A program made the position numbers. Shown here one piece after another: positions 57,712 to 60,700 of a stretch of DNA of 64,000 bases (position 1 is its first letter; every line of letters begins with the position of its first letter). Origin of the DNA: Escherichia coli O157:H7 (GTDB lineage: Bacteria; Pseudomonadota; Gammaproteobacteria; Enterobacterales; Enterobacteriaceae); assembly GCF_013167455.1 (NCBI RefSeq), contig NZ_CP038328.1. One strand, written 5' to 3'.

Positions 57712-60700
57712 AGCTACGAAGCCTCTCTGATGGCGCTGCACGACCGTGACGTTATCCGCACCATGGCGTGTGGTATCGCTGGTCTGTCCGTTGCTGCTGA
57801 CTCCCTGTCTGCAATCAAATATGCGAAAGTTAAACCGATTCGTGACGAAGACGGTCTGGCTATCGACTTCGAAATCGAAGGCGAATACCCGCAGTTTGGT
57901 AACAACGATCCGCGTGTAGATGACCTGGCTGTTGACCTGGTAGAACGTTTCATGAAGAAAATTCAGAAACTGCACACCTACCGTGACGCTATCCCGACTC
58001 AGTCTGTTCTGACCATCACTTCTAACGTTGTGTATGGTAAGAAAACGGGTAACACCCCAGACGGTCGTCGTGCTGGCGCGCCGTTCGGACCGGGTGCTAA
58101 CCCGATGCACGGTCGTGACCAGAAAGGTGCTGTAGCGTCTCTGACTTCCGTTGCTAAACTGCCGTTTGCTTACGCTAAAGATGGTATCTCCTACACCTTC
58201 TCTATCGTTCCGAACGCACTGGGTAAAGACGACGAAGTTCGTAAGACCAACCTGGCTGGTCTGATGGATGGTTACTTCCACCACGAAGCATCCATCGAAG
58301 GTGGTCAGCACCTGAACGTTAACGTGATGAACCGTGAAATGCTGCTCGACGCGATGGAAAATCCGGAAAAATATCCGCAGCTGACCATCCGTGTATCTGG
58401 CTACGCAGTACGTTTCAACTCGCTGACTAAAGAACAGCAGCAGGACGTTATTACTCGTACCTTCACTCAATCTATGTAATTAGATTTGACTGAAATCGTA
58501 CAGTAAAAAGCGTACAATAAAGGCTCCACGAAAGTGGGGCCTTTTTTAGCACGTGAGCCTTTTTTGTCAGCTATCTATACTTTAAGGTGACTGCCAAAAC
58601 AGACTCGACGTAGCCTTCGAGCTGCGCACCAACACGGCCTCAGATGGGCCACATCTGGAGAAACACCGCAATGTCAGTTATTGGTCGCATTCACTCCTTT
58701 GAATCCTGTGGAACCGTAGACGGCCCAGGTATTCGCTTTATCACCTTTTTCCAGGGCTGCCTGATGCGCTGCCTGTATTGTCATAACCGCGACACCTGGG
58801 ACACGCATGGCGGTAAAGAAGTTACCGTTGAAGATTTGATGAAGGAAGTGGTGACCTATCGCCACTTTATGAACGCTTCCGGCGGCGGCGTTACCGCATC
58901 CGGCGGTGAAGCAATCCTGCAAGCTGAGTTTGTTCGTGACTGGTTCCGCGCCTGCAAAAAAGAAGGCATTCATACCTGTCTGGACACCAACGGTTTTGTT
59001 CGTCGTTACGATCCGGTGATTGATGAACTGCTGGAAGTAACCGACCTGGTAATGCTCGATCTCAAACAGATGAACGACGAGATCCACCAAAATCTGGTTG
59101 GAGTTTCCAACCACCGCACGCTGGAGTTCGCCAAATATCTGGCGAATAAAAATGTGAAGGTGTGGATCCGCTACGTTGTTGTCCCAGGCTGGTCTGACGA
59201 TGACGATTCAGCGCATCGCCTCGGTGAATTTACCCGTGATATGGGTAACGTTGAGAAAATCGAACTTCTCCCCTACCACGAACTGGGCAAACACAAATGG
59301 GTGGCGATGGGTGAAGAATACAAACTCGATGGTGTTAAACCACCGAAGAAAGAAACCATGGAACGCGTGAAAGGTATTCTTGAGCAGTACGGTCATAAGG
59401 TAATGTTCTAATTTCCCCGTAAAGCGGCAACTTTATTGAGTTGCCGCTTTTTTATTCCGCGCTGCATAAATAATTCAGAGCTCTATTTCTAACGCCCTTA
59501 CAGCACAGCTTCCAAATGTATTACCCAAACCGCCAGTATATGTCCTGCGGCTTGCGCGCATTTCTCGATTATGTAAAAACGGGTCAGATCTGCCAGAGTC
59601 AGCGTCACCGACCACAATAATTATTTACTATTCGCTTTACGCGCCAGCAGCGGGAATATCAGTCCTAATCCTACCAGCACAAACGGCGTTGCAACATTCA
59701 GCGCCAACTGGAAGGTCCACTCTGCAGTGAAGGCTTCCATTTTCGGGAAGATCCCCGTCAAACAGGCAAAGGCAGTAAAGGCAAAACACCAAATCCCGAC
59801 GGTCATTGCCAGAGGCTTATTACGAATAAAGACATACTCTGGTGTATATTTCTGCGCCAGGCGAACGACTGCAATAAATGCAACAAATACCCATAAATAA
59901 CGCAGCGGCATCACTACCGAGTTAAGATTCAACAGCCATTTATAGAGATTGTTCATATCACCGATGCCGAGAGTCGGCAGCATAATCAGGATCGCCACCA
60001 GCACCAGGGTCAGAAAATAGCCATTAACGGGCGTACCAGAAGCGTTGGTACGACATAAACTGGCTGGAATATATTTGCTGTCAGCATCGCCTAATAGCAC
60101 TTTAAGCGGGGCATCAATCGAGAATACCAGCGCAGCTACTTGTCCCAGGGTATTCGCAATGGCGTAAATCACCATTAAAGTATTACCCATGTTGTAATAC
60201 TCGCCCAGCTTCTGAAAGGCGTAATACTGACCGTTAGTCATTAAGTCATCCGGGATATTACGCGAGTCAAACATCATCCCCATCGCCAGTGAGCCCAGAA
60301 TGGCACAAACCGCAACCATCACCGCCAGGCATAACATCCCTTTTGGAAATTCTTTTCCTGGGTTGCGCGTTTGATTAACGTAAGGAGAAATCTTCTCAGC
60401 TCCGCCAACCGCGAAAACCAGCATTGAAATAGTGGTAATGTAGGTAAAGTCGATATGAGGAATGAACGTTTCCCAGGTAATGTTTGTGGTCGCAATATGC
60501 ACTTCAGTAATCGCAGGCGCGGTTACCGCCATCGCCACATACAGGAGCGACATAACAAACATCGCAATCCCTGCCACAGAACCGACGATTTTCAGCGATT
60601 TCATACCGCGTGAAGCAACCCACATAAAGAAGATAAACAGCACCAGCGTTAACCCCTGTAACGCTACGACTGAATATTCTTTGATTAGCGAACCGTCGCC

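What the first reader, a model, noticed from the sequence alone, without database searches (positions are those of the whole stretch)
59412..59620. ycaN and ycaK appear to be absent between pflA and ycaM
As I recall the K-12 map, a LysR-type regulator gene (ycaN) and an NAD(P)H oxidoreductase-like gene (ycaK) lie between ycaM and pflA, about 1.9 kb stop-to-stop. Here the convergent ycaM and pflA stops are only ~210 bp apart with no ORF between them, implying a ~1.7-kb indel relative to K-12.
Basis: partly seen in the sequence, partly recalled or inferred. Interest (0 to 1): 0.4.

Follow-up and report, generated by a model that had tools for sequence, protein, structure and literature searches.

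The report
Old ycaN–ycaK deletion scar in O157:H7
The short gap between pflA and ycaM is the scar of an old 1.5-kb deletion that removed the ycaK gene and most of the ycaN regulator gene; about a fifth of sequenced E. coli share it and it is already annotated as a pseudogene fragment, so it is real but ordinary.

Summary
The window is E. coli O157:H7 (100% match). The convergent pflA and ycaM stop codons are 209 bp apart (59412-59620). In K-12 the same stops are 1680 bp apart, with ycaN and ycaK between them.

The net difference is 1471 bp, not about 1.7 kb. The gap is not featureless. It holds:
- the pflA terminator;
- a diverged remnant of the pflA-ycaK spacer;
- probably the last few codons of ycaK;
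- the last 36 codons plus stop of ycaN (97% amino-acid identity to K-12). RefSeq already annotates this as a LysR pseudogene lacking its N-terminus.

So this is a deletion, not a K-12 insertion. The same scar occurs in 1023 of 5426 complete E. coli genomes. 3336 genomes keep ycaK, and 1047 have a larger deletion that also removes ycaM. No sampled scar-bearing genome has the lost segment elsewhere.

E. albertii carries the same scar. Other Escherichia lineages carry different scars, so there were at least two independent losses. Citrobacter, Kluyvera, Yokenella and Salmonella subspecies have ycaM next to pflA with no trace of ycaN or ycaK. This suggests the pair was gained in Escherichia and then repeatedly lost.

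Verdict: a real, common, already catalogued gene-content polymorphism of low interest.

The parts
58671..59411 (+). pflA (pyruvate formate-lyase activating enzyme), intact; left flank of the scar
   Evidence: ORF ends at 59411. RefSeq O157:H7 annotation maps the 741-bp pflA here. Pfam Radical_SAM and Fer4_12.
59421..59456 (+). pflA intrinsic terminator (13-pair hairpin plus T-run), kept intact
   Evidence: Terminator scan. Identical in K-12, with homology continuing to 59467. Conserved in all Escherichia alleles aligned.
59457..59497 (.). Strongly diverged remnant of the spacer that lies between the pflA terminator and the ycaK stop codon in K-12. 59468-59507 is the 40-bp 'filler' that BLAST could not place in K-12.
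   Evidence: Not matched in 11 kb of K-12 by blastn with word size 7. It aligns collinearly with the same region of E. albertii (about 75% identity), Escherichia sp. E1V33 and SCPM-O-B-8794, and weakly with the K-12 spacer.
59498..59507 (-). Probable vestige of the ycaK 3' end: TTACAGCACA against K-12 TTATAGTGCA (stop codon plus 2-3 codons). Short, so the assignment is tentative.
   Evidence: Alignments. The related alleles L008 and L009 keep an unambiguous 16/17-nt match to the ycaK end (CTTATAGTGCATCAACC) at the same place.
59507..59508 (.). Deletion junction. The exact position is ambiguous by about 10 nt.
   Evidence: K-12 homology resumes at 59508 = K-12 948772. No direct repeat of 7 nt or more lies at the K-12 breakpoints.
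59508..59620 (+). ycaN 3' remnant: last 36 codons plus stop (YcaN residues 267-302), with no start codon or promoter; a pseudogene
   Evidence: tblastn 97% identity, E = 2e-19. 110/113 nt identical to K-12. RefSeq annotates it as 'LysR family transcriptional regulator, incomplete, missing N-terminus'.
59621..61051 (-). ycaM (APC-family permease), intact; right flank of the scar
   Evidence: ORF, RefSeq annotation, Pfam AA_permease_2.

Best explanation
The 209-bp spacer is the scar of an old illegitimate (non-homologous) deletion of about 1.47 kb. It removed the divergently transcribed pair ycaN (LysR-type regulator) and ycaK (flavodoxin-like NAD(P)H oxidoreductase) together with their shared promoter region. 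What remains is the pflA terminator, a decayed piece of the pflA-ycaK spacer, probably 2-3 codons of ycaK, and the last 36 codons of ycaN abutting the ycaM stop codon.

Shown:
- The remnant is a dead gene fragment.
- The lost segment is not found elsewhere in the sampled O157:H7 genomes.
- The allele is shared by about 19% of complete E. coli genomes and by E. albertii.

Inferred:
- ycaN-ycaK were inserted between ycaM and pflA in an ancestor of Escherichia and later lost at least twice independently.
- The intact and deleted alleles have coexisted since then or have been exchanged by homologous recombination through the conserved flanks.
- O157:H7 lacks YcaN-dependent regulation of neighbouring genes.
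For: Window identity and gene order:
- The window is 100% identical to O157:H7 chromosomes.
- K-12 has ycaM-ycaN-ycaK-pflA.

Breakpoints:
- Window 59467 corresponds to K-12 950284, and window 59508 to K-12 948772.

Remnant:
- It encodes YcaN residues 267-302 at 97% identity.
- It is annotated as a pseudogene.

Allele counts in 5426 complete genomes:
- ycaK present in 3336.
- O157-type scar in 1023.
- pflA terminator joined directly to the ycaD terminator in 1047.
- A chimeric query of the scar plus the deleted K-12 segment hit 4364 genomes. Every sampled scar-bearing genome, including O157:H7 strains 86-24 and Z1814, matched the scar only, at one place.

Relatives outside E. coli:
- E. albertii has the collinear scar. 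Two Escherichia lineages keep 16 nt of ycaK, and a third keeps ycaN codons 250-302.
- Citrobacter, Kluyvera, Yokenella, Pluralibacter and Salmonella subsp. diarizonae have ycaM and pflA about 45-160 bp apart, with no ycaN or ycaK similarity.

Composition:
- ycaN and ycaK have GC3 of 0.44 and 0.41, against 0.53-0.61 for ycaM, pflA and ycaD.
Against: - The 40-bp filler is only about 60% alignable to the K-12 spacer, so the left breakpoint and the ycaK vestige rest on short, noisy alignments.
- The same scar in E. albertii together with the intact allele in many E. coli requires either a very old polymorphism or transfer between lineages. Neither was tested.
- Phylogroup assignment of the 1023 genomes was not done.
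- No expression or phenotype data for O157:H7 were examined.
Confidence: 0.93

Rival explanations
1. The short form is ancestral, and K-12-like strains gained ycaN-ycaK by insertion into this spacer. On this view O157:H7 never had the genes.
For: Other genera (Citrobacter, Kluyvera, Yokenella, Salmonella subspecies) have ycaM and pflA adjacent without ycaN or ycaK. ycaN and ycaK have low GC3. An insertion therefore did happen at some earlier time.
Against: The O157 spacer contains an in-frame, start-less copy of the last 36 codons of ycaN that is 97% identical to K-12. Related scars keep ycaK end codons. The outgroup spacers have no such sequence. A truncated gene end cannot predate the gene.
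Confidence: 0.03
2. The genes were not lost but moved to another chromosomal site or a plasmid in O157:H7.
For: None found. Five or six plasmid-borne matches to ycaK or the deleted segment exist somewhere in the collection.
Against: There is no YcaN or YcaK similarity elsewhere in the window. In the chimeric-query search every sampled scar-bearing genome, including O157:H7 strains 86-24 and Z1814, had a single place covering only the scar. The counts add up as disjoint sets: 4364 = 1023 + 3341.
Confidence: 0.02
3. The short spacer is an assembly or sequencing artefact (a collapsed region).
For: None.
Against: The identical junction is present in 1023 independent complete genomes from many laboratories and platforms.
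Confidence: 0.01

Closest known systems
K-islands: K-12 segments absent from O157:H7, catalogued in the EDL933 and Sakai genome comparisons (from my own knowledge of Perna et al. 2001 and Hayashi et al. 2001; not retrieved here)
   Same: A K-12 segment of more than 50 bp (1511 bp holding ycaK and most of ycaN) is absent from O157:H7 at an otherwise collinear backbone position.
   Different: I could not check which numbered island this is. The library held no paper that mentions ycaK together with O157. Here the direction of change (deletion) and the wider distribution, including E. albertii, are worked out.
RefSeq/PGAP pseudogene annotation at this locus in O157:H7 genomes (for example ECpv15279_RS05035 and LSI72_RS19555)
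   Same: Same 111-bp feature (window 59510-59620), called 'LysR family transcriptional regulator / hypothetical protein, incomplete, missing N-terminus'.
   Different: The annotation does not name ycaN, does not note the loss of ycaK, and does not place the breakpoints.
Larger deletion allele pflA-ycaD (for example strain U13A), in which ycaM, ycaN and ycaK are all missing
   Same: Same locus and the same left boundary region just after the pflA terminator. Similar frequency: 1047 genomes.
   Different: It removes about 3.3 kb including ycaM and joins the pflA terminator to the ycaD terminator through 8 nt (GTGCACAG). No ycaN remnant is left.

Membership tests
ycaN (LysR-type transcriptional regulator) pseudogene remnant | Sequence homology to K-12 YcaN at the syntenic position, abutting the ycaM stop codon | tested here: met
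   tblastn of YcaN residues 267-302 against window 59510-59617: 97% identity, E = 2e-19. 110/113 nt identical. The ycaN and ycaM stop codons are adjacent, as in K-12.
ycaN (LysR-type transcriptional regulator) pseudogene remnant | A functional LysR regulator needs the N-terminal HTH_1 domain and the LysR_substrate domain | tested here: not met
   K-12 YcaN has HTH_1 (residues 7-63) and LysR_substrate (91-290). The remnant covers only residues 267-302, gives no Pfam hit and has no start codon. It is a dead fragment, not a gene.
ycaK (flavodoxin-like NAD(P)H oxidoreductase) | Presence of the Flavodoxin_2 coding sequence | tested here: not met
   K-12 YcaK is Flavodoxin_2. There is no tblastn hit better than E = 1.6 anywhere in the window. 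At most a 10-nt vestige remains at 59498-59507.
Lineage-specific deletion (as opposed to insertion in the comparator) | Truncated gene ends remain at the junction, and the full gene exists in relatives at the same site | tested here: met
   The ycaN 3' end is retained here. Related scars retain ycaK 3' codons. Full genes are present in 3336 E. coli genomes.
Mobile-element-mediated or repeat-mediated deletion | An IS end, or direct repeats of 7 nt or more, flanking the lost segment | tested here: not met
   The only shared k-mer of 6 nt or more between the K-12 breakpoint zones is an off-register 6-mer. The filler is unique in O157 genomes, one place per genome, and is homologous to the spacer of other Escherichia, not to an IS.

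The most novel reading that the evidence does not exclude
The pflA-ycaM gap is a recurrent gene gain-and-loss hot spot in Enterobacteriaceae. On this reading, ycaN-ycaK entered it in the Escherichia ancestor and have since been lost at least two or three times with breakpoints falling within about 15-50 nt of each other. The intact and deleted alleles have then persisted side by side across the E. coli / E. albertii split. This would point either to long-term balancing selection on a regulator that touches formate metabolism genes, or to constraints (keeping the pflA terminator and the ycaM 3' flank) that channel where deletions can end.
Probability: 0.2. Interest if true: 0.35.

Novelty: already known. 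Interest (0 to 1): 0.12.

Why it matters
The practical value is limited. It tells annotators and people comparing K-12 with O157:H7 that YcaN and YcaK are naturally absent from O157:H7 and from roughly 38% of complete E. coli genomes.

Regulatory results for YcaN obtained in K-12 BW25113 include effects on ycaC, ycaD and focA and a formate phenotype (PMC9068703). These results cannot be transferred to strains that lack YcaN.

The locus could also serve as a simple three-state lineage marker: intact, ΔycaN'-ycaK, or ΔycaM-ycaK.

Tried and rejected
- **Foreign origin of the 40-bp filler.** I looked for it as an IS end or as sequence copied from elsewhere. blastn with word size 7 found nothing in 11 kb of K-12. 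It occurs once per genome in O157. Alignment with other Escherichia showed it is simply the diverged local spacer.
- **Direct repeats at the K-12 breakpoints.** Nothing of 7 nt or more. One repeat finder failed on a strand argument and was replaced by a script.
- **A global alignment with nearly free gap extension.** It scattered the filler over spurious 4-8-nt matches in K-12. I discarded that result and used multiple alignments instead.
- **Rfam search of the spacer.** The only hit was a sub-threshold STnc250 match (17.7 bits against a gathering score of 42) that is just the pflA terminator hairpin.
- **RNA fold of the - strand.** The z-score of -4.6 is dominated by that same terminator. No separate ycaM terminator could be claimed.
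- **Literature.** No paper mentions ycaK together with O157, and the b0900/b0901 hits were irrelevant.
- **Origin of ycaN-ycaK.** I ran no further search on this, because the synteny evidence sufficed for the verdict.

Full report
**What is in the window**

The window matches E. coli O157:H7 chromosomes at 100% identity over 58900-60200. The local gene order is focA, pflB, pflA (58671-59411, +), then ycaM (59621-61051, -), ycaD and ycaC. Pfam confirms the identities of pflA and ycaM. The pflA stop codon ends at 59411 and the ycaM stop codon occupies 59621-59623.

**Comparison with K-12**

The recalled K-12 map is correct. In NC_000913.3 the order is ycaM (947229-948659, +), ycaN (948660-949568, -), ycaK (949668-950258, +), pflA (950340-951080, -).

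- The K-12 stop-to-stop spacer is 1680 bp, so the net difference from the window is 1471 bp.
- BLAST of the window against the K-12 region shows 98-99% identity up to window 59467 (K-12 950284) and again from window 59508 (K-12 948772).
- Between these points, 1511 bp of K-12 are replaced by 40 bp in the window (59468-59507). The missing K-12 sequence is all of ycaK, the ycaN-ycaK promoter region and ycaN codons 1 to about 266.

**What the spacer contains**

1. The pflA intrinsic terminator at 59421-59456, a 13-pair hairpin plus T-run, unchanged from K-12.
2. A stretch (59457-59507) that BLAST could not place in K-12. It aligns collinearly with the same position in E. albertii (about 75% identity) and in two other Escherichia lineages, and weakly with the K-12 spacer between the pflA terminator and the ycaK stop.
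   - Its last 10 nt, TTACAGCACA, correspond to K-12 TTATAGTGCA, the ycaK stop codon plus 2-3 codons read on the other strand. In this allele that assignment is tentative.
   - In the related alleles L008 and L009 the match to the ycaK end is 16/17 nt, which is secure.
3. The ycaN 3' end at 59508-59620. It encodes residues 267-302 plus the stop, at 97% amino-acid identity (E = 2e-19) and 110/113 nt identity to K-12. It has no start codon, and its stop codon directly abuts the ycaM stop, as in K-12. RefSeq already annotates it in O157:H7 genomes as an incomplete LysR-family pseudogene missing its N-terminus.

The 46-codon GTG ORF on the minus strand (59475-59615) lies antisense to this fragment and is not annotated. 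Rfam finds nothing above threshold in the spacer.

**Direction of the change**

A start-less, in-frame copy of a gene's last 36 codons can only be what is left after the rest of the gene was removed. The O157 form is therefore a deletion derivative of a ycaN-ycaK-bearing ancestor, not the state before an insertion.

No direct repeat of 7 nt or more flanks the lost segment in K-12. The filler is not an IS end: it occurs once per genome and is homologous to the local spacer of relatives. The mechanism is best described as illegitimate recombination with little or no microhomology. That last step is inference.

**Are the genes elsewhere?**

- Within the 64-kb window there is no other YcaN or YcaK similarity.
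- Across 5426 complete E. coli genomes, ycaK is present in 3336.
- A scar-specific 71-bp query hits 1023 genomes, at a single place in all but one.
- A chimeric query made of the scar plus the 1511-bp K-12 segment hits 4364 genomes, which is 1023 + 3341. Every sampled scar-bearing genome, including O157:H7 strains 86-24 and Z1814, matches the scar only, at one place.

The genes are lost, not moved.

**Population context**

The locus has three common states in complete E. coli genomes:

| State | Genomes |
|---|---|
| Intact (ycaK present) | 3336 |
| O157-type scar | 1023 |
| pflA terminator joined through 8 nt to the ycaD terminator, with ycaM also gone | 1047 |

Scar-bearing genomes include all sampled O157:H7 and many unrelated isolates from dogs, poultry, pigs and humans, whose flanks are 97-98% identical to the window. 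I did not assign phylogroups.

**Wider evolutionary context**

A scan of one genome per species with YcaM returned 41 loci.

- In Citrobacter, Kluyvera, Yokenella, Pluralibacter and Salmonella enterica subsp. diarizonae, ycaM and pflA converge with only about 45-160 bp between them, and there is no ycaN or ycaK similarity.
- Some Citrobacter and Kluyvera carry unrelated cargo in this gap: a gene for a 263-residue protein with an apparent signal peptide, or a cassette of about 5 kb with PTS-like and transketolase-like genes.
- In K-12, ycaN and ycaK have GC3 of 0.44 and 0.41, against 0.53-0.61 for ycaM, pflA and ycaD.

Together these results suggest that ycaN-ycaK were inserted in an ancestor of Escherichia.

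Within Escherichia the scars differ:

- E. albertii NBRC 107761 carries the same scar as O157.
- Escherichia sp. E1V33 and strain SCPM-O-B-8794 carry a scar that keeps 16 nt of ycaK and joins ycaN 11 nt further in.
- Escherichia sp. MOD1-EC7003 keeps ycaN codons 250-302 and no ycaK codons.

Neither of the last two scars can be derived from the other, so there were at least two independent losses. Whether the O157/E. albertii scar and the E1V33-type scar come from one event is unresolved.

The three nucleotide differences between O157 and K-12 in the ycaN remnant all lie within 17 nt of the junction, and the remaining 96 nt are identical. This fits an old allele whose flanks have been homogenised by recombination.

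**Functional meaning (inference)**

YcaN is a LysR regulator (HTH_1 plus LysR_substrate) and YcaK a flavodoxin-like oxidoreductase. One K-12 study reports the following (PMC9068703):

- YcaN binds near the adjacent genes ycaC and ycaD and affects them, and also affects focA.
- A ycaN knockout loses a formate-utilisation phenotype.

O157:H7 and other scar-bearing strains naturally lack this regulator. Whether that changes anything in them was not tested. The high frequency of loss alleles, about 38% of complete genomes, argues that the pair is dispensable.

**Verdict**

It is an ordinary, widespread, already annotated gene-content polymorphism of the kind catalogued since the first K-12 versus O157:H7 comparisons. 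That last point rests on my own knowledge; no paper in the library addresses this locus in O157. Interest is low.

Noticed in passing
L004 7512-7609 (E. coli U13A); corresponds to window 59412-61260: A third common allele, in 1047 of 5426 genomes, lacks ycaM as well as ycaN and ycaK. The pflA terminator T-run is followed by GTGCACAG and then directly by the ycaD terminator hairpin, leaving only 96 bp between pflA and ycaD.
   Followed up: partly
L012 9400-15250, L014, L034, L043; L017, L022 and L035 about 9450-10270: In some Citrobacter and Kluyvera species the same ycaM-pflA gap holds other cargo: a gene for a roughly 263-residue protein with an apparent signal peptide, and/or a cassette of about 5 kb with PTS-like, split transketolase-like and RpiR-like genes. 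These gene identities were judged by eye from the translations, not by a family search. The gap appears to be a recurrent insertion site.
   Followed up: partly
L006 7490-7860 (E. coli CUVET20-PYO2): This strain has a local duplication of the pflA 3' end and its terminator next to the pflA-ycaD junction. It also has a split ycaD and an IS26 between ycaC and dmsC.
   Followed up: no
L005 1-6419 (E. coli AF10) and L024 (strain E69): In these genomes ycaM is not followed by pflA. In AF10, ycaM is frameshifted and lies next to CHASE9/EAL/GGDEF genes and bcsA, which indicates a chromosomal rearrangement with a breakpoint at this same spacer.
   Followed up: no
L010 10379-17428 (E. albertii NBRC 107761): No pflB is detected within the 7 kb beyond the pflA start in this locus. 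The sequence there looks unrelated, possibly an inserted element between pflA and pflB.
   Followed up: no
window 59621-61243 (-) and 58644-59411 (+): The mechanical ORFs for ycaM (540 codons from a GTG) and pflA (255 codons) extend upstream of the annotated starts (ycaM 476 aa, start at 61051; pflA 246 aa, start at 58671). These are only ORF-finder extensions, not different genes.
   Followed up: yes
K-12 L001 6260-6340 versus L008/L009 spacers: The K-12-type spacer between the pflA terminator and the ycaK stop is about 14 nt shorter than in the scar-bearing Escherichia alleles (…CATGAGTTAATTCAGCACATC… against …CTACAGC…). The intact allele has therefore also had a small deletion there.
   Followed up: no
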